Part shown: piece after piece, positions 23,731 through 64,000 of the stretch
Numbering within the stretch: position 1 is the stretch's first letter
How the letters are laid out: every line of letters begins with the position of its first letter
Source: a virus
Virus record (IMG/VR): IMGVR_UViG_3300025648_000013
DNA: 64,000 nt
Reading direction: 5' to 3' (one strand)
Notes under the pieces: generated by a model
Seen by the model: the letters and a program-made list of their open reading frames with translations, nothing else
Told to the model about the DNA's origin: nothing
Databases searched by the model: none
Position numbers and translations under genes: made by a program

Positions 23731-25119
23731 ATGTTACTCAACGAACAGATCCAATCAAAGTGGGGCCCAGTGCTTGAACATCCTGATCTTCCAAAGATCC
23801 AAGATGCACACAAGCGTTCGGTTGTTGCACAGCTACTTGAAAACACCGAAACCGCTCTACGCGAAGCTGGTGCCCAAGGCTCAATGCAGTCACTTCTAGA
23901 AACTTCAGACTCAGCCCCAACTAACGTTTCAGGTGGTTCACTCAACTACGATCCAGTGCTTATCTCACTAGTTCGTCGTGCGATGCCTAACCTAATCGCT
24001 TATGACATCTGCGGTGTTCAGCCAATGACTGGTCCAACTGGGCTAATCTTCGCTCTACGTCCACAGTATTCAAACCAGGCTGGTCAGGACGCATTCTACT
24101 ACGAACCAAACACTGCGCAGTCATCATACTACGGCTCAAACGCTTCTATCACTGCTAATACGACTGTTGGTAACACACAGGTTGTCGGTGGTGCTTCAAG
24201 CGATCTTGGTGGCGTCTATGGCGTTTCAAACACTGTCATTGTTTCAGGTAACTCACAGACCTACAACTTTGAAGGTGGTATGCAGACCTCATATGCTGAA
24301 CAGCTAGGTTCAACCACACTAGGCAACGATTTTGCTCAGATGGCCTTCTCAATCGATAAGGTTACTGTTACTGCAAACTCACGCGCTCTAAAGGCTGAAT
24401 ATTCAATCGAACTAGCCCAGGATCTAAAAGCAATCCATGGTCTAGATGCAGAAACAGAACTTTCAACCATTCTTTCTGCTGAAATCCTTGCTGAAATCAA
24501 CCGTGAAGTCGTTCGTACAGTTGTTCTAACTTCAGCCCCAGGTGCTGTTGATACTACTAACCCAGGCGTATTCGACCTTGACGTTGACTCAAACGGCCGT
24601 TGGTCAGTTGAAAAGTTCAAGGGCCTAATGTTCCAGATCGAACGTGAAGCTAACGCTATTGCCAAGGCAACTCGTCGTGGTAAAGGTAACATCCTAATCT
24701 GTTCATCAGACGTTGCTTCTGCTCTACAGATGGCCGGTGTTCTTGACTACGCTCCTGCTCTAAACAGCAACAACCTCCAGGTTGACGATACAGGCAACAC
24801 CTTTGCTGGTGTCCTAAATGGTCGCATTCGCGTCTATATCGATCCATATGCTGGTGGTAACTACGCCGTTGTCGGTTACAAGGGTTCATCAGCATTTGAT
24901 GCTGGTGTGTTCTACTGCCCATACGTTCCACTACAGATGGTTCGTGCGGTTGGTCAAGATACCTTCCAGCCAAAGATCGGGTTCAAGACACGCTACGGCA
25001 TGGTCTCTAACCCATTCGCTGCTGGTGCAATCAACGGTGCTGCTTCAACTACAACTGGTGCACTCGTTCAAAACCAGAACGTGTTCTATCGCCGCTTTAC
25101 CGTTGCAAACATCATTTAA
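23731..25119 (+). CDS. gp23: Major capsid protein gp23
   Basis: 'LVRRAMPNLIAYDICGVQPMTGPTGLIFA', 'FQPKIGFKTRYG'; late promoter at 23687. Confidence 0.98.
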   Translation: MLLNEQIQSKWGPVLEHPDLPKIQDAHKRSVVAQLLENTETALREAGAQGSMQSLLETSDSAPTNVSGGSLNYDPVLISLVRRAMPNLIAYDICGVQPMTGPTGLIFALRPQYSNQAGQDAFYYEPNTAQSSYYGSNASITANTTVGNTQVVGGASSDLGGVYGVSNTVIVSGNSQTYNFEGGMQTSYAEQLGSTTLGNDFAQMAFSIDKVTVTANSRALKAEYSIELAQDLKAIHGLDAETELSTILSAEILAEINREVVRTVVLTSAPGAVDTTNPGVFDLDVDSNGRWSVEKFKGLMFQIEREANAIAKATRRGKGNILICSSDVASALQMAGVLDYAPALNSNNLQVDDTGNTFAGVLNGRIRVYIDPYAGGNYAVVGYKGSSAFDAGVFYCPYVPLQMVRAVGQDTFQPKIGFKTRYGMVSNPFAAGAINGAASTTTGALVQNQNVFYRRFTVANII

Positions 25120-25146
25120 AAAATAATAAAAGTGATGTTAAACTGT

Positions 25147-25180
25147 GGGGGGAGAATCGAAAGGTTCTCCCCCTTTCTTT
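25147..25180 (+). terminator. Intrinsic terminator after gp23
   Basis: GGGGGAGAA...TTCTCCCCC followed by TTTCTTT. Confidence 0.85.
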
Positions 25181-25245
25181 ATGTCTAATGATCTGTTGAT
25201 ATAAATACAGTATCAAATGACTTATGCGTGTATTAGGAGATTTTC

Positions 25246-27459
25246 ATGACATTTAAAACACCAGCAAACAATTCTGTAATTCAGCCAGTAGGTATCTCAT
25301 CTAAACCAACTTTTGGTTCGATGGACAATCTAGGTCGCGTTCGCACTTCGCGTCACCAGAATATTTACGAAGCAGACTTTGAATATGGCGCGCAGCCAAT
25401 GCGCTGGGAAAACTATGTTATTAGTCCATCTAGCAACTCTTCTATTCAGCAACTACCAGGATCTGGTGGTGTTCGTATGCGCCTTGGTACAGCAAGTGGT
25501 GATGTAACTATTCGTCAGACAAGACCATATCATCGTTATCAGCCAGGCAAGACTATGATCATGTCAACTGCTTTGAACTTTGGTACAGCACAAACAAATC
25601 AGCGCCAGCGCGTAGGTTTCTTCGATGATGGCAATGGTGTGTTCCTGGAACAAGGTGATCCTGTGTATGCAAACTCTATTACGGCATTTACCGGTAACAG
25701 TACAGCAAACTCAAATCTTATTACTGGTTTGTCAAGCACTGCTACTATGTACATTGGTATGCCAGTAACTGGACCAAACATCAATCCAAGTGTTACTGTT
25801 AAAGATACTAATGGAACATTAAACATTCCATATACAACAGTTGTGCAAAATATCATCAATAGTACCGCAGTTGCTATCAGTTCACCAACAACTTCAACGA
25901 CAACTGGTACCAGCTATCAGTTTACAACACAAGCCAATCCATTTGGTATGTTTTGTGTCGTTCGCTCAGATGTCAATCAAGCAGGTGTAGTAAATCACGG
26001 CACCAACTCAGGTGTTCCAACAGACTATCGCGTTCCTCTTCCAGCATGGAATGGTGATCAGGCTACAATCAACTCTCTTGATTGGTCACGTATTCAGATG
26101 ATCTGGCAAGAATATACTTGGTATGGTGCTGGTATGGTACGCTGGGGCGTAGTCATCAATGGTGAATGGATTGTTCTACATTACATCGGTTTCGGTAATA
26201 AAGGTCCGATCAATACGACAAATCCACAAATTGGAAACATTGTTATTCCAGCACAAGAAAGCCCATGGTCACGTACTGGTAACCTTCCAGTTCGTTATGA
26301 ACAGCGCAATATTGGCGTAACTGCTTCACAGAACGATATGTTCCACTATGGTGTTTCTGTTGTTATTGAAGGCGGACAAGATGACCAACGCGGATTTACT
26401 TATCCGTATGGTATGTCAAACACTTCACCTAAGAGAACGGTTTCTGGATCTACTGCTCGTTATCCTGTTCTTACTATGGCCAGTCGCCCTATGGCAACTA
26501 TTGAAATGAGCGGCAACGGAACATACAATGCCATCAACTCAACAAGCACAAACTCAACACTTTATTTTACAACAGCAAATACCTCATTTGATGGTGTTCA
26601 AACATCATCATTGATTGGTAACTATACTTCTGGTAATAATATTGTTGTTATCACTTCTGGTAGTACAGCAAACGTTTATGTTGGGCAAACTGTTACATCA
26701 AACTTAACGGGCATTCCTGCTACTACAGTAACATCTTTTGTGAACACAACAGCATATACAATATCTGCTCCTGCTACAGTAACACAGACTGGCGCTCAGG
26801 TCAATACGTATACTAATAATACACTTACTGGTCGTCATATTTACTTCCCTGCACAAGGAACAAGTAACACAGGGTTAACTGGACGTATCACTTCAAGTAA
26901 CTCAACAGTCATTACATATGGCAATATTATCACTGGTGCACCTATTGCAAATACTGCATCCATGACTGGTACTCCTTTCCAGATTGGTCTAATCAATCGT
27001 GGTCAGCTACTACCAAAGAAGATGTATCTATCAGCCGATGCTCAGTGTATTGTTGAGTTGATTACGTCAACAACTTCAAGCCCTATTCTATTGACTGGTG
27101 CGCAGTTCTACACACTAGCAAACACCACAACATCAAACACAACTGCTGGTACAATCACACAGGCAAATGGTATTACATTCGCTAATGGTGCTACTGTAAA
27201 CTCTATCGGTCTTGGGTCAAACTACTCGTTTGCAATGAGAGACGTTTCGGCTACAGCGATGACAGGTGGTGAAGTTGTGTTTGCATTCACTGCTCCTGCT
27301 GGTGGTTCTGGTCTACAAGAAATCGATCTATCATATTTCTTCCCACTCTATAACACTGTTGCTGGTAACCTAACTGACCAGTTGACTGTTGCTATTACAA
27401 CAGGATCTAACGCAGCAAACGTTGGTGTTCACATCATCGCACAGGAAGCGATGTCATAA
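25246..27459 (+). CDS. Virion structural protein
   Basis: Late promoter upstream; 'RQTRPYHRYQPGK', 'WYGAGMVRWG', 'NLPVRYE' motifs. Confidence 0.7.
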   Translation: MTFKTPANNSVIQPVGISSKPTFGSMDNLGRVRTSRHQNIYEADFEYGAQPMRWENYVISPSSNSSIQQLPGSGGVRMRLGTASGDVTIRQTRPYHRYQPGKTMIMSTALNFGTAQTNQRQRVGFFDDGNGVFLEQGDPVYANSITAFTGNSTANSNLITGLSSTATMYIGMPVTGPNINPSVTVKDTNGTLNIPYTTVVQNIINSTAVAISSPTTSTTTGTSYQFTTQANPFGMFCVVRSDVNQAGVVNHGTNSGVPTDYRVPLPAWNGDQATINSLDWSRIQMIWQEYTWYGAGMVRWGVVINGEWIVLHYIGFGNKGPINTTNPQIGNIVIPAQESPWSRTGNLPVRYEQRNIGVTASQNDMFHYGVSVVIEGGQDDQRGFTYPYGMSNTSPKRTVSGSTARYPVLTMASRPMATIEMSGNGTYNAINSTSTNSTLYFTTANTSFDGVQTSSLIGNYTSGNNIVVITSGSTANVYVGQTVTSNLTGIPATTVTSFVNTTAYTISAPATVTQTGAQVNTYTNNTLTGRHIYFPAQGTSNTGLTGRITSSNSTVITYGNIITGAPIANTASMTGTPFQIGLINRGQLLPKKMYLSADAQCIVELITSTTSSPILLTGAQFYTLANTTTSNTTAGTITQANGITFANGATVNSIGLGSNYSFAMRDVSATAMTGGEVVFAFTAPAGGSGLQEIDLSYFFPLYNTVAGNLTDQLTVAITTGSNAANVGVHIIAQEAMS

Positions 27460-28253: not shown

Positions 28254-28286
28254 AAAAAGGGGGAGTAGTTTTGCTACTCCCCTTTA
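28252..28286. terminator. Bidirectional terminator
   Basis: A-run, GGGGAGTAG-tttg-CTACTCCCC, T-run, between convergent units. Confidence 0.85.
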
Positions 28287-28291
28287 AACTT

Positions 28292-28366
28292 TGGATTCCC
28301 GGGTTGGCCCCGCCCCAACATTAACGCCTTCAAAGGGCGTGGTCCTACTCATTAGACGACCGGGAA
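28292..28366 (-). tRNA. tRNA-Gln(TTG), atypical T-loop
   Basis: TTCCCGG/CCGGGAA acceptor; ACGCC-CT TTG AA-GGCGT; T-loop GGCGGGG; CCA encoded. Confidence 0.8.
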
Positions 28367-28396
28367 TCAAAAGAGCATTGCGCTCTACTTATTATT

Positions 28397-28482
28397 TGGT
28401 ACGGCTGGTGGGACTCGAACCCACACTAACAAAGTTAACCGAAGCTTAAATCCGGCGGGTCTACCAATTCCCCCACGCCCGC
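28397..28482 (-). tRNA. tRNA-Leu(TAA)
   Basis: CCGGA-TT TAA GC-TTCGG; long variable arm; TTCGAGT T-loop; CCA; two acceptor mismatches. Confidence 0.8.
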
Positions 28483-28527
28483 ACAAACTCTCTAAATCAT
28501 AAATAATAATAAAAAGGGAGTATAATC

Positions 28528-28890
28528 ATGTCTATCAAAGATAACATCACTAAGTTCAACGACATGGTTGCAGTGAACCTTACAGATACAGTAGGAACCA
28601 TGTGGTGTGCTTATGCGTTTGCTTTGTTGGCTCTAATCAGTCTACCAGACGCTATTCACGCTGGGCTTGCAGCTACAATCTCATGGATCGCACAGACATT
28701 TCTTCAACTAGTTCTACTTAGTGTGATCATGGTAGGTCAAGAAGTTCAAGCCAGAAAGACAGAAGCTAGAAGCCAGCAAGATCACGAAACGATCTTGGCC
28801 GAGTTTGCTGAAATCAAAGCAATGCATGCCGAACTAACATCACTCCATGAGGACAAAGAAGGATGTGGATACGTAGAACAAAAGCAGTAA
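28528..28890 (+). CDS. Membrane protein (DUF1003-like)
   Basis: 'VGTMWCAYAFALLAL', 'WIAQTFLQLVLLSVIMVGQ'. Confidence 0.65.
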   Translation: MSIKDNITKFNDMVAVNLTDTVGTMWCAYAFALLALISLPDAIHAGLAATISWIAQTFLQLVLLSVIMVGQEVQARKTEARSQQDHETILAEFAEIKAMHAELTSLHEDKEGCGYVEQKQ

Positions 28891-29444
28891 TAGTAGCACT
28901 AACACTTCTGTTCTCTGCTCCAGCACTCGCGGAAGATCAACAGATCAATGCTGATAGACCAGGCGTAGGTATCGATGCTGACGTCATTCCACTTAAAACC
29001 TTTCAGGCTGAAGTAGGTGTTGATGGTTATGAGTTTAGAATGGCAATTGCAAAGGACTTAGAAGTATTCAAAGATAACACCAGCTTTGGTGCAAAGTATG
29101 CTATCATTTATAATCACAAGTTTGAATTATCAGCCAAGCTAGGATATGATAATAACAATGGTGTTTTCATTGAAGTGCCATCAAAGTATATTTTTAACAA
29201 ATACTTTTACTTGGGTACAGATGTTCAGATTGCTAAACATTCACAGACATATGTGACTGAATACAACTTTACACCAACAGATACACTTACAATCATGCCT
29301 TCTGTCTACTATGACACAAAGGTCAAAACTGGCATCTATGTTTCATGGATTCCACCTAAGAAACAGAATCTACAGTTTGACATTGGTTATAGCGAACACA
29401 AGTTTACCTTGGGTGTAAGTTCTGCATTTAGAGTTTTACAATAA
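28863..29444 (+). CDS. Exported, probable beta-barrel protein
   Basis: Signal peptide ending 'APALA', 'INADRPG...FQAEVG', alternating beta-strands. Confidence 0.55.
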   Translation: MWIRRTKAVIVALTLLFSAPALAEDQQINADRPGVGIDADVIPLKTFQAEVGVDGYEFRMAIAKDLEVFKDNTSFGAKYAIIYNHKFELSAKLGYDNNNGVFIEVPSKYIFNKYFYLGTDVQIAKHSQTYVTEYNFTPTDTLTIMPSVYYDTKVKTGIYVSWIPPKKQNLQFDIGYSEHKFTLGVSSAFRVLQ

Positions 29445-29447
29445 TAT

Positions 29448-29524
29448 TGGTACCCCTGGAGGGTCTCGAACCCCCAGCCGAGCCGTTATGAGCGGCCAGC
29501 TCTAACCAGTTGAGCTACAGGGGT
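29448..29524 (-). tRNA. tRNA with CAT anticodon, probably Ile2
   Basis: ACCCCTG/CAGGGGT; GGCCG-CT CAT AA-CGGCT; lacks initiator features. Confidence 0.85.
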
Positions 29525-29525
29525 A

Positions 29526-29599
29526 TGGCGAAGGTGCACGGTACCGCCCCGTGTTCTTCGGTTTTGGAGACCGACACATCACTTTAATGCTTCACCGAC
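29526..29599 (-). tRNA. tRNA-Trp(CCA), atypical T-loop
   Basis: TCGGT-CT CCA AA-ACCGA; T-loop GGCGGTA; two acceptor mismatches. Confidence 0.7.
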
Positions 29600-29605
29600 A
29601 TGAAA

Positions 29606-29684
29606 TGGCGCGCTGGGAGGGATTCGAACCCCCATGTGTCCAGTTAGCTTTCTCCTGATTAGAAGTCAGGCGGCATACCAGCGC
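29606..29684 (-). tRNA. Non-canonical D-armless tRNA-Arg(TCT)-like RNA
   Basis: Perfect acceptor and anticodon stems, canonical T arm and CCA, but only 7 nt where the D arm belongs and a 20-nt variable region. Confidence 0.7.
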
Positions 29685-29691
29685 ATAAAGC

Positions 29692-29856
29692 TTATCTAGT
29701 TTGATCTAGCGCGATATCAGACCAGTCCAGCCAGTCTTTCTCTTCGACATCCAACTTCTGACCAGAGCGATATCGTTTGATAAGTTCGCTTCGCATATTG
29801 GAGATAGCACGATACCCATGCCTGAAAGTAGGTAGATAATACTGCTTAACCAACAT
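29692..29856 (-). CDS. Small hypothetical protein (54 aa)
   Basis: AGGA RBS; MLVKQYYLPTF...; not in the track. Confidence 0.5.
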   Translation of the reverse strand: MLVKQYYLPTFRHGYRAISNMRSELIKRYRSGQKLDVEEKDWLDWSDIALDQTR

Positions 29857-29883
29857 CATAACATCCTAACAAATGTGTATTAC

Positions 29884-30099
29884 TTATTCGCCATATTCAC
29901 TGGTCACAGCAAAGAAACCAATGACCATAAGAATAAGACCAACAAACATTCCATATACCATATGGATTACGCTTGGAGGATCACCTGCAACACAATCTAC
30001 TGCGCGATGACACGCTTCCCAATAGTCATCAGCACTGGCTGAACTTGCGAGTACCAAGATACCGACGATCATCAGACCAAAACCAAAAAACTTGCTCAT
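29884..30099 (-). CDS. Small two-helix membrane protein
   Basis: GGAGA RBS; two hydrophobic segments. Confidence 0.6.
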   Translation of the reverse strand: MSKFFGFGLMIVGILVLASSASADDYWEACHRAVDCVAGDPPSVIHMVYGMFVGLILMVIGFFAVTSEYGE

Positions 30100-30184
30100 A
30101 GTGAATCTCCAAAAAAAGGAGAGCGAGGTCCACTTAGGCGACTGCCAATTTGCGAAAGACCACTCGTTCGCTCTCTATATTCCC

Positions 30185-30212
30185 ACTATATACGATTCGC
30201 TAAAAATGTCAA
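30185..30212 (-). promoter_or_regulatory. Early promoter with GANTC, driving the tRNA cluster
   Basis: TTGACA-tttttagc-GAATC-gta-TATAGT. Confidence 0.75.
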
Positions 30213-57232: not shown

Positions 57233-57309
57233 TCCCTTCGAGCGAGCAGGCGAACGCAACTGGCTGTTAACCAGTAAAATGCTAGGATCGATACCTAGGA
57301 AGGGAGCCA
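57233..57309 (+). tRNA. tRNA-Asn(GTT)
   Basis: TCCCTTC/GAAGGGA; ACTGG-CT GTT AA-CCAGT; CCA. Confidence 0.85.

Positions 57310-61571: not shown

Positions 61572-64000
<2,429 letters not shown>

What the first reader, a model, noticed from the sequence alone, without database searches (positions are those of the whole stretch)
29606..29684. D-armless tRNA-Arg(UCU) with a D-loop-like sequence moved to the variable region
Seen (minus strand): GCGCTGG TATGCCG CCTGA CT TCT AA TCAGG AGAAAGCTAACTGGACACAT GGGGG TTCGAAT CCCTC CCAGCGC G CCA. Acceptor and anticodon stems are perfect and the T arm is canonical, in better condition than neighbouring tRNAs. Only 7 nt replace the D arm, and the 20-nt variable region holds AACTGGA, a typical D-loop with the GG that contacts the T-loop. 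ATG/CAT or GC/GC could pair across the two linkers. Established: D-armless tRNAs are known mainly from mitochondria. Inference: a topologically rewired tRNA that rebuilds the elbow from the 3' side, either decoding AGA (frequent in this phage, rare in GC-rich hosts) or acting as a tRNA mimic/decoy. Standard scanners would probably miss it.
Basis: partly seen in the sequence, partly recalled or inferred. Interest (0 to 1): 0.8.

Follow-up and report, generated by a model that had tools for sequence, protein, structure and literature searches.

The report
Phage arginine tRNA with rewired D-arm
This 79-base phage gene is very probably a working arginine tRNA (anticodon UCU) that has every part of a normal tRNA, but half of the D-stem and the whole D-loop lie after the anticodon arm instead of before it. 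More than a hundred phage sequences share this non-cloverleaf layout, and I found no paper describing it.

Summary
It is not a one-off.

About 116 of them carry arginine anticodons (UCU, ACG, UCG, CCU, GCG). Seven carry isoleucine-type anticodons.

Comparative evidence shows the D-arm is re-strung, not lost:
- Two bases of the 5' linker covary with two bases just before the displaced D-loop motif.
- The base at the position-15 equivalent covaries with the last base before the T stem, like the Levitt 15-48 pair.
- The base after GG is A in the arginine members and U in all seven isoleucine-type members, matching the known position-20 identity rules.

In phage tRNA arrays the rewired gene usually fills an arginine anticodon that no ordinary tRNA there covers. 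AGA is this phage's commonest arginine codon. A host-derived gene in the same window uses it 0 times in 53.

ARAGORN misses 96 of 98 instances. Rfam's tRNA model does find this one. Most deposited records of cultured phages that I opened leave the gene unannotated.

Expression, charging and 3D fold are untested. This scan has reported the same class repeatedly on other DNA. Nine paper searches and one review found no description.

The parts
29606..29684 (-). Whole gene: rewired tRNA-Arg(UCU), 76 nt plus encoded CCA
   Evidence: Sequence. Rfam tRNA 40.9 bits. Family model R1 87.4 bits, the top hit, but it is a training member.
29678..29684 (-). Acceptor stem, 5' strand (GCGCUGG). Pairs with 29610-29616.
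   Evidence: 7/7 Watson-Crick in the window. In the family 98.2% of cells pair, and all 7 pairs show two-sided changes.
29676..29677 (-). U8 A9
   Evidence: Invariant in 57 class A and 30 class B sequences.
29671..29675 (-). 5' linker UGCCG, equivalent to canonical positions 22-26 (the 3' strand of the D-stem plus position 26)
   Evidence: G29674 and C29673 pair with C29647 and G29648. The corresponding alignment columns 11-39 and 12-37 covary.
29654..29670 (-). Anticodon arm: 5-bp stem CCUGA/UCAGG, loop CUUCUAA, anticodon UCU at 29661-29663
   Evidence: Sequence. U33 and A37 present. Stem columns covary.
29647..29653 (-). AGAAAGC. The final GC is the displaced 5' strand of the D-stem (positions 11-12). 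A29653 faces G29671 (like 26.44). G29652 may pair with C29672 across an AAA bulge.
   Evidence: Columns 37 and 39 of A1. The A.G and C-G contacts are inference from subtype comparison.
29639..29646 (-). Displaced D-loop UAACUGGA, read as U13 A14 A15 C16 U17 G18 G19 A20
   Evidence: Columns for UAA and GGA are conserved in at least 90% of sequences. The base after GG is A in arginine members and U in the 7 isoleucine-type members.
29634..29638 (-). Connector CACAU. The last U acts as position 48, partner of A15 (29644).
   Evidence: Columns 42-56: AU in 55 and GC in 2 sequences, no exception, in class A. AU 23, GC 4, UG 1, other 2 in class B.
29617..29633 (-). T arm: GGGGG / UUCGAAU / CCCUC
   Evidence: Sequence. 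100% paired across the family.
29606..29616 (-). Acceptor 3' strand CCAGCGC, discriminator G73, encoded CCA
   Evidence: Sequence. The discriminator is A in 3 of 6 closely related contigs.
28260..30212 (-). Probable transcription unit. Order: promoter-like site 30212-30185, two small ORFs (30099-29884, 29859-29692), this tRNA, Trp-like tRNA 29599-29529, tRNA-Met 29524-29448, tRNA-Leu 28482-28397, terminator-like hairpin 28282-28260.
   Evidence: Consensus scans only. tRNA calls. ORFs. Inference, not shown.

Best explanation
The gene encodes a translating tRNA-Arg(UCU) that reads AGA, the phage's commonest arginine codon.

It belongs to a widespread phage class in which canonical segment 10-21 (the 5' strand of the D-stem plus the D-loop) has changed places with segment 22-44 (the 3' strand of the D-stem, position 26 and the anticodon arm).

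The chain runs: acceptor, U8 A9, strand 22-25, position 26, anticodon arm, a short linker, strand 10-13, D-loop, connector ending in position 48, T arm.

The D-stem therefore forms across the anticodon arm and extends it as one stack. The D-loop still offers A14, R15, G18 G19 and A20 to U8, Y48, the T-loop and ArgRS.

Shown here: the layout, its conservation, the covarying pairs, the restriction to arginine (plus a few isoleucine) anticodons, and the codon demand.

Inferred: the L-shape, charging by host ArgRS through A20, C35, U36 and G73, processing by RNase P, and use on the ribosome.
For: Rewired hits score 45 bits or more; ordinary tRNAs score 39 or less.

2. In the class A alignment of 57 sequences, column 11 pairs with 39 (CG 40, UA 8, GC 5, AU 2, other 1) and column 12 with 37 (GC 27, CG 22, AU 1, UG 1, other 5). 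An all-against-all mutual-information scan picks exactly these partners. The whole structure is 94.7% paired against 63.5% in shuffles, 0 of 500 shuffles as high, and 37-47% when partners are slid.

3. The Levitt-like pair has A.U in 55 and G.C in 2 sequences with no exception in class A; 28 of 30 class B sequences pair there.

4. The window's own linker subtype (UAUGCCG and AGAAAGC before the D-loop motif) is identical in five sequences whose acceptor, anticodon and T stems all differ and stay paired.

5. In the anticodon-agnostic scan every rewired hit had an arginine anticodon.

6. The base after GG is A in arginine members and U in 7 of 7 isoleucine-type members, which also all have A73. 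This matches bacterial identity sets: Arg A20, C35, U/G36, A/G73; Ile U20, A73 (PMC9976931).

7. In 28 of 34 loci that also hold ordinary phage tRNA-Arg genes, the rewired gene has a different anticodon. In MAG tRNA arrays it supplies the missing UCU.

8. AGA is 34.6% of arginine codons in the phage genes. It is 0 of 53 in the 60%-GC, Sphingomonadales-like LeuRS gene in the same window.

9. All six closely related contigs keep the gene identical up to the discriminator, while the DNA directly after CCA is replaced.
Against: There is no expression, end-mapping, charging or structural data.

The window's own swapped D-stem has only two certain Watson-Crick pairs.

The third pair is subtype-dependent: only 22 of 57 sequences pair in the simple register.

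Energy-based folding predicts only the three ordinary helices, both for the single sequence (z = -0.69) and for the alignment. The rewired stem therefore rests on covariation alone.

The sequences are related, so the counts are not independent events. The G15-C48 support in class A comes from two sequences.

Confidence: 0.78

Rival explanations
1. It is a working tRNA, but it is functionally D-armless. The linkers merely lengthen the anticodon stem, as in mitochondrial tRNA-Ser(AGY), and the displaced UAACUGGA does not rebuild the D-loop/T-loop elbow.
For: There is no hairpin between the acceptor and anticodon stems. Energy models do not predict the linker helix. Only 2-3 pairs are involved.
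Against: The GG and the fully canonical UUCGAAU T-loop are conserved together. The 15-48 equivalent covaries. The base after GG tracks amino-acid identity. None of this is expected if the loop were a passive linker.
Confidence: 0.08
2. It is a tRNA mimic or decoy that is not used in translation. For example, it could soak up a host tRNA-Arg-cleaving or tRNA-modifying defence enzyme.
For: Six of 34 loci carry an ordinary tRNA-Arg with the same anticodon next to the rewired one, for example phage Zooman. Phages are known to carry tRNAs that counter anticodon nucleases (own knowledge).
Against: A decoy needs only the targeted part. Here the acceptor stem, discriminator, CCA, T arm, U33, A37 and A20 are all maintained. 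The anticodons mostly complement the ordinary phage set. Codon demand for AGA is high.
Confidence: 0.08
3. It is a decayed or recombinant tRNA pseudogene, for example a tRNA fragment left at a recombination joint.
For: Homology with related contigs breaks exactly after CCA. tRNA fragments are a known annotation problem (PMC9897764, title and abstract only).
Against: More than 100 diverse homologues keep all helices through compensatory changes and keep the linkers. The gene is identical up to the discriminator in contigs that are 83-94% identical in the flanks.
Confidence: 0.02

Closest known systems
Canonical class I bacterial and phage tRNA-Arg(UCU) (Rfam RF00005). Example: the annotated tRNA-Arg-TCT of Caulobacter phage Ccr10, KY555142 51961-52038.
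   Same: 7-bp acceptor stem, 5-bp anticodon arm with a CUUCUA(A/C) loop, 5-bp T arm, G73, encoded CCA, and a D-loop of the A-R-Y-Y-G-G-A type. The last 29 nt (T arm 3' part, acceptor strand, G73, CCA) are 96.6% identical to the Ccr10 gene.
   Different: In the canonical gene the D hairpin (10-25) precedes the anticodon arm. Here strand 22-26 comes first, then the anticodon arm, then strand 10-13 and the D-loop. The RNA cannot be drawn as a cloverleaf.
D-armless mitochondrial tRNAs (mammalian mt-tRNA-Ser(AGY), nematode mt-tRNAs; reviews PMC7609411, PMC4394434)
   Same: No hairpin between the acceptor stem and the anticodon stem. The anticodon helix is extended.
   Different: Those RNAs are short, have lost the G18 G19 / T-psi-C elbow motifs, and work with adapted organellar factors. 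This one is 76 nt and keeps GG, A14, R15-Y48 and a textbook T-loop. It sits in a phage of bacteria.
Permuted tRNA genes of the red alga Cyanidioschyzon merolae (own knowledge, not checked here)
   Same: The gene order of tRNA segments differs from the standard order.
   Different: There the 3' half precedes the 5' half, and processing through a circular intermediate yields an ordinary cloverleaf. Here both ends are in the ordinary place, and the swap is internal and presumably stays in the mature RNA.
allo-tRNAs and other 8/4 or 9/3 tRNAs from metagenomes and phages (PMC5389517)
   Same: Natural non-standard tRNA architectures, found by mining metagenomes and partly phage-borne.
   Different: Those change helix lengths but keep the cloverleaf order of arms. 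This class changes the order.
Earlier notes of this scan on other genomes (for example e1-118661, e1-152826, e1-5345453, e1-5753613)
   Same: The same class: phage arginine tRNAs with the D-loop after the anticodon arm.
   Different: Those are AI notes, not publications. This report adds three things: position 20 tracks identity in isoleucine-type members, the host-derived LeuRS codon contrast, and the cultured carrier PAK_P2.

Membership tests
tRNA (Rfam RF00005) | Score at or above the curated gathering score | tested here: met
   40.9 bits against 29.
tRNA (Rfam RF00005) | 7-bp acceptor stem, discriminator, 3' CCA | tested here: met
   7/7 pairs, G73, CCA encoded. Covaries in the family.
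tRNA (Rfam RF00005) | 5-bp anticodon stem, 7-nt loop with U33 and purine 37 | tested here: met
   CCUGA / CUUCUAA / UCAGG.
tRNA (Rfam RF00005) | 5-bp T stem with a UUCRANY loop | tested here: met
   GGGGG / UUCGAAU / CCCUC.
tRNA (Rfam RF00005) | D hairpin between position 9 and position 26 (cloverleaf order of arms) | tested here: not met
   15 model positions are replaced by 4 nt, and there is a 17-nt insertion after the anticodon arm.
Bacterial arginine identity set (PMC9976931, Table 1) | C35 and U/G36 | tested here: met
   Anticodon UCU.
Bacterial arginine identity set (PMC9976931, Table 1) | A/G73 (U73 also listed) | tested here: met
   G73 in the window; A73 in three relatives.
Bacterial arginine identity set (PMC9976931, Table 1) | [quoted passage not shown] | tested here: inconclusive
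   An A follows GG in the displaced loop, as in nearly all arginine-type members, and it is U in 7 of 7 isoleucine-type members. Whether it sits in the position-20 pocket is a 3D question that I could not test.
Bacterial arginine identity set (PMC9976931, Table 1) | Aminoacylation by ArgRS | not testable with these tools
   Needs a charging assay.
   The window has G-C and C-G at these pairs.
   UAACUGGA, with A15 and U48 equivalents.
D-armless mitochondrial tRNAs | Loss of D-stem pairing and of the G18 G19 / T-loop elbow motifs; organellar origin | tested here: not met
   Cross-linker pairs covary. GG and the T-loop are conserved. The context is a phage.
Permuted tRNA genes (C. merolae type) | The 3' half lies upstream of the 5' half in the gene, so the acceptor strands lie in the middle | tested here: not met
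   The acceptor 5' strand is at the 5' end of the gene, and the 3' strand plus CCA are at its 3' end.
Class II tRNAs (long variable arm) | The variable region folds into its own stem-loop | tested here: not met
   No conserved helix inside the 20-nt region.

The most novel reading that the evidence does not exclude
The rewired core is an adaptation, not a neutral oddity. On this reading it is a fully functional tRNA, the first natural non-cloverleaf tRNA class used by bacterial ribosomes. Its changed strand order would hide it from host enzymes that read the ordinary D-arm region (tRNA-cleaving defence nucleases or other tRNA-targeting factors). ArgRS, which mainly needs A20 and C35, would still charge it. 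This would explain why the design is almost confined to arginine, with a few isoleucine cases, and to phages.
Probability: 0.2. Interest if true: 0.9.

Novelty: new variant of a known kind. Interest (0 to 1): 0.8.

Why it matters
The cloverleaf order of arms is treated as universal for tRNAs outside organelles. A large natural family that keeps the parts but re-strings them would show three things. First, the L-shape can be reached by another chain topology. Second, bacterial processing, charging and decoding machinery tolerates that topology. Third, phage tRNA sets, and therefore codon-usage and host-takeover analyses, are systematically under-annotated. It would also offer a natural scaffold for tRNA engineering. 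If the adaptive reading holds, it would be a new route by which phages protect their translation from host defence.

Tried and rejected
- The window's own assembly is not held, and relatives cannot be drawn for a virus record.
- Megablast of the 2.2-kb region against cultured phages found only a 34-nt tRNA-Leu match.
- Single-sequence folding is uninformative: z = -0.69.
- RNAalifold on 57 sequences returns only the three ordinary helices.
- A simple third D-stem pair (columns 13-36) holds in only 22 of 57 sequences. An alternative partner across an AAA bulge fits the window's subtype but is not general.
- I looked for published RNA-seq of a carrier phage. PAK_P3 and PAK_P4, which have RNA-seq, have no class A hit to model R1 (best 22 and 26 bits). 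PAK_P2, which has the gene, has no RNA-seq that I could find.
- PAK_P3 sRNA1 and sRNA2 are not members of this class.
- Nine full-text searches found no description of the layout.
- The 2020 review of non-canonical tRNAs does not mention phages at all.

Full report
**Observation.**
- The order is: acceptor GCGCUGG, UA, UGCCG, anticodon arm CCUGA-CUUCUAA-UCAGG, then AGAAAGC-UAACUGGA-CACAU, T arm GGGGG-UUCGAAU-CCCUC, CCAGCGC, G, CCA.
- Rfam's tRNA model finds it at 40.9 bits (gathering score 29). The D-arm is deleted (15 model positions against 4 nt) and there is a 17-nt insertion after the anticodon arm.
- ARAGORN does not report it.

**Setting.**
- The window is about 40% GC and carries T4-like phage genes: virion proteins, scaffold, tail tube, helicases, UvsX-like recombinase.
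- The gene heads a minus-strand tRNA cluster, followed by a weak Trp-like tRNA, tRNA-Met and tRNA-Leu.
- A strong promoter-like site lies upstream (11 of 12 matches) and a terminator-like hairpin lies downstream. These are consensus matches only.

**It is not a one-off.**
- Six viral contigs from freshwater metagenomes carry the same gene. It is identical except for G73 or A73, in flanks that are 83-94% identical. The DNA directly after CCA is replaced in them.
- One pattern required only the UCU anticodon loop, a long gap and the common T-loop.
- About 60 distinct sequences from that scan share the layout: acceptor, UA plus 5-6 nt, anticodon arm, 18-26 nt holding a UAAYUGGA-like motif, T arm.
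- A second pattern did not fix the anticodon (D-loop-like motif close to the T arm). Every hit with the rewired layout had an arginine anticodon: UCU, ACG, UCG, CCU or GCG.
- Model R1, built from 57 class A sequences, was searched over all 238 fetched loci and the window. It separates rewired genes (45 bits or more) from ordinary tRNAs (39 or less) and gives 124 distinct members.
- The window's gene scores 87.4 bits, but it is a training sequence.

**Structure from comparison.** There are two layouts.

*Class A (the window's class; 66 distinct sequences by my parser).* The 5' linker has 7 nt.
- In a MAFFT alignment of 57 sequences, linker column 11 pairs with column 39, the base just before the UAA motif: CG 40, UA 8, GC 5, AU 2, other 1.
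- Column 12 pairs with column 37: GC 27, CG 22, AU 1, UG 1, other 5.
- A blind mutual-information scan of these columns against all others returns the same partners: 1.16 and 0.81 bits.
- The second base of the UAR motif pairs with the last base before the T stem: A.U 55, G.C 2, none unpaired. Canonical R15 and Y48 (the Levitt pair) behave the same way.
- The whole structure is 94.7% paired against 63.5% in shuffles. No shuffle of 500 is as high, and pairing drops to 37-47% when partners are slid.

*Class B (30 sequences).* The linker has 8 nt and there is an extra 3-bp helix.
- The extra helix joins A9-N10-N11 to the three bases after the D-loop. It is 96.7% paired, with GC 20 / AU 10 and CG 20 / UA 7.

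*Mapping to canonical numbering.*
- The 5' linker is U8, A9, 22-25, 26.
- The stretch after the anticodon arm is a short spacer, then 10-13, the D-loop (A14 R15 Y16 Y17 G18 G19 N20), a connector, and Y48.
- So segments 10-21 and 22-44 have changed places.
- In an ordinary tRNA, strand 39-44 continues helically into strand 10-13. The new connection therefore simply makes the anticodon/D stack a continuous hairpin. This last step is geometric inference.

**The window's own version.**
- G29674-C29647 and C29673-G29648 are the two covarying pairs.
- C29672 may pair with G29652 across an AAA bulge, and G29671 faces A29653 like G26.A44 (inference).
- The same linkers (UAUGCCG and AGAAAGC before the loop motif) occur unchanged in four other sequences, two with anticodon UCU and two with UCG. 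Their acceptor, anticodon and T stems all differ yet stay paired. This points to selection on the linkers.

**Function.**
- The anticodon loops are ordinary for arginine tRNAs: U33, C35, A37.
- 58 of 96 genes encode CCA.
- Discriminators are G, U or A. These fit the bacterial arginine set of A20, C35, U/G36, A/G73 or U73 (PMC9976931).
- The base after GG is A in nearly all arginine members. The exceptions listed are mostly parser slips; two are real.
- Model R1 also found seven rewired genes with isoleucine-type anticodons (UAU five times, CAU, GAU). All seven have U after GG and A73. These are the bacterial isoleucine elements U20 and A73.
- The displaced loop therefore behaves like a real D-loop, with an identity-bearing position 20.

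**Distribution among arginine anticodons.**
- Rewired genes mostly sit in phage tRNA arrays of up to 29 tRNAs per locus.
- In 28 of 34 loci that also hold ordinary phage tRNA-Arg genes, the rewired one has a different anticodon. Some phages cover three arginine anticodons with rewired genes.

**Codon demand.**
- In the window no ordinary tRNA-Arg is found.
- AGA is the most used arginine codon: 260 of 751, or 15 per thousand codons.
- The end of the window holds a 60%-GC leucyl-tRNA synthetase gene, 75-78% identical to Sphingomonadales enzymes.
- On longer contigs this gene is embedded among phage genes.
- It uses AGA 0 times in 53 arginine codons.
- If that gene reflects the host, AGA is rare there and the phage has reason to bring its own reader.

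**Distribution among genomes.**
- A strict pattern found only 7 matches in one genome each of 185,579 prokaryote species. All 7 were in MAG contigs with 15-25 tRNAs in 8 kb, that is, phage-like arrays.
- Cultured carriers include the following:
  - Pseudomonas phage PAK_P2 and relatives
  - Limnohabitans phage DC31
  - Agrobacterium phage Atu_ph04
  - Stenotrophomonas phage SOVA965
  - many Streptomyces and Microbacterium phages
  - Caulobacter phage Ccr10
  - T5-like Vibrio phages
- In most of these records nothing is annotated under the match.
- Mildred21 labels its UCG member tRNA-Phe(gaa), which is a frame slip of the anticodon.
- ARAGORN misses 96 of 98 instances.

**Limits.**
- Nothing here shows the RNA exists, is charged or is L-shaped.
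- Energy models do not predict the short cross-linker helix.
- The sequences are related, so the counts overstate independent events.
- The G15-C48 support in class A rests on two sequences.

**Earlier notes of this scan.** They describe the same class on other DNA. One carries the remark that part of a similar claim fell on later checking, with no detail. I reached the reading before opening them and tested the claims myself.

**Prior knowledge.** Nine full-text searches and two reviews gave no description of this layout. The 2020 review of natural non-canonical tRNAs does not mention phages. The library lacks most subscription journals, so a published description cannot be excluded.

**Verdict.**
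- This is a real member of a widespread phage tRNA class with a re-strung D-arm, most likely a working tRNA-Arg(UCU) for AGA.
- It is a new variant of a known kind.
- Interest is high because it breaks the cloverleaf rule in a bacterial translation setting and can be tested directly in cultured phages.

Noticed in passing
window 61572-63998 (+), running off the window end; full gene at L252:10001-12514: A full-length (837 aa) leucyl-tRNA synthetase gene sits inside the phage. It is about 60% GC against about 40% for the phage and is 75-78% identical to Sphingomonadales LeuRS. On longer contigs it is flanked by phage genes: DNA polymerase B, UvsX-like, RNase H, PhoH, an ADP-ribosyltransferase. 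It looks like a recent capture from the host lineage and points to a Sphingomonadales host.
   Followed up: partly
window 29529-29599 (-): A Trp-like tRNA (anticodon CCA) with a G-rich, non-standard T-loop. It scores 24.8 bits, below Rfam's gathering score, and ARAGORN misses it.
   Followed up: no
L038:2134-2212, L073:2050-2130, L104:518-599, L156:5506-5582, L200:2533-2609, L047:4321-4397, L110:6041-6121: Seven rewired tRNAs with isoleucine-type anticodons (UAU five times, CAU, GAU). All have GGU instead of GGA in the displaced loop, and all have A73. So the layout is not exclusive to arginine.
   Followed up: partly
L023, L033, L059, L119, L031, L038, L048, L055, L062, L092 (coordinates): Phage tRNAs with a UCU anticodon, an ordinary D-arm and a long (14-20 nt) variable arm. 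This is a class II shape with an arginine anticodon. Their amino-acid identity is unclear.
   Followed up: no
L248:2808-2925 (Pseudomonas phage PAK_P3, KC862299 about 86307-86424): The abundant late 'sRNA2' reported from RNA-seq (PMC4933390) overlaps a tRNA-like gene of about 115 nt. It has acceptor strands GCUGUGU/ACACAGC, a T arm and CCA, directly after tRNA-Tyr. It looks like another unrecognised odd tRNA, not a regulatory sRNA. It is not a member of the rewired arginine class.
   Followed up: partly
L241:295-370 (Streptomyces phage Mildred21, MF155946 91367-91442): A rewired tRNA-Arg(UCG) is annotated as tRNA-Phe(gaa). The anticodon was read two bases out of register.
   Followed up: yes
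window 29452-29605 compared with G001 24633-25251 (L001, L002): In the closest relatives the Trp-like and Met tRNA genes are replaced by about 620 nt of unrelated sequence. The homology break falls exactly after the CCA of the rewired tRNA.
   Followed up: partly
L232:4827-4918, L233:5450-5544, L235:5090-5181, L238:3951-4045: ARAGORN calls tRNA-Ile(UAU) genes of 92-95 nt in the MAG tRNA arrays. This may be the two-hairpin isoleucine tRNA described in note e1-121598.
   Followed up: no
window 57233-57309 (+): ARAGORN calls a tRNA-Asn(GUU) that Rfam's tRNA model does not report at its gathering score.
   Followed up: no
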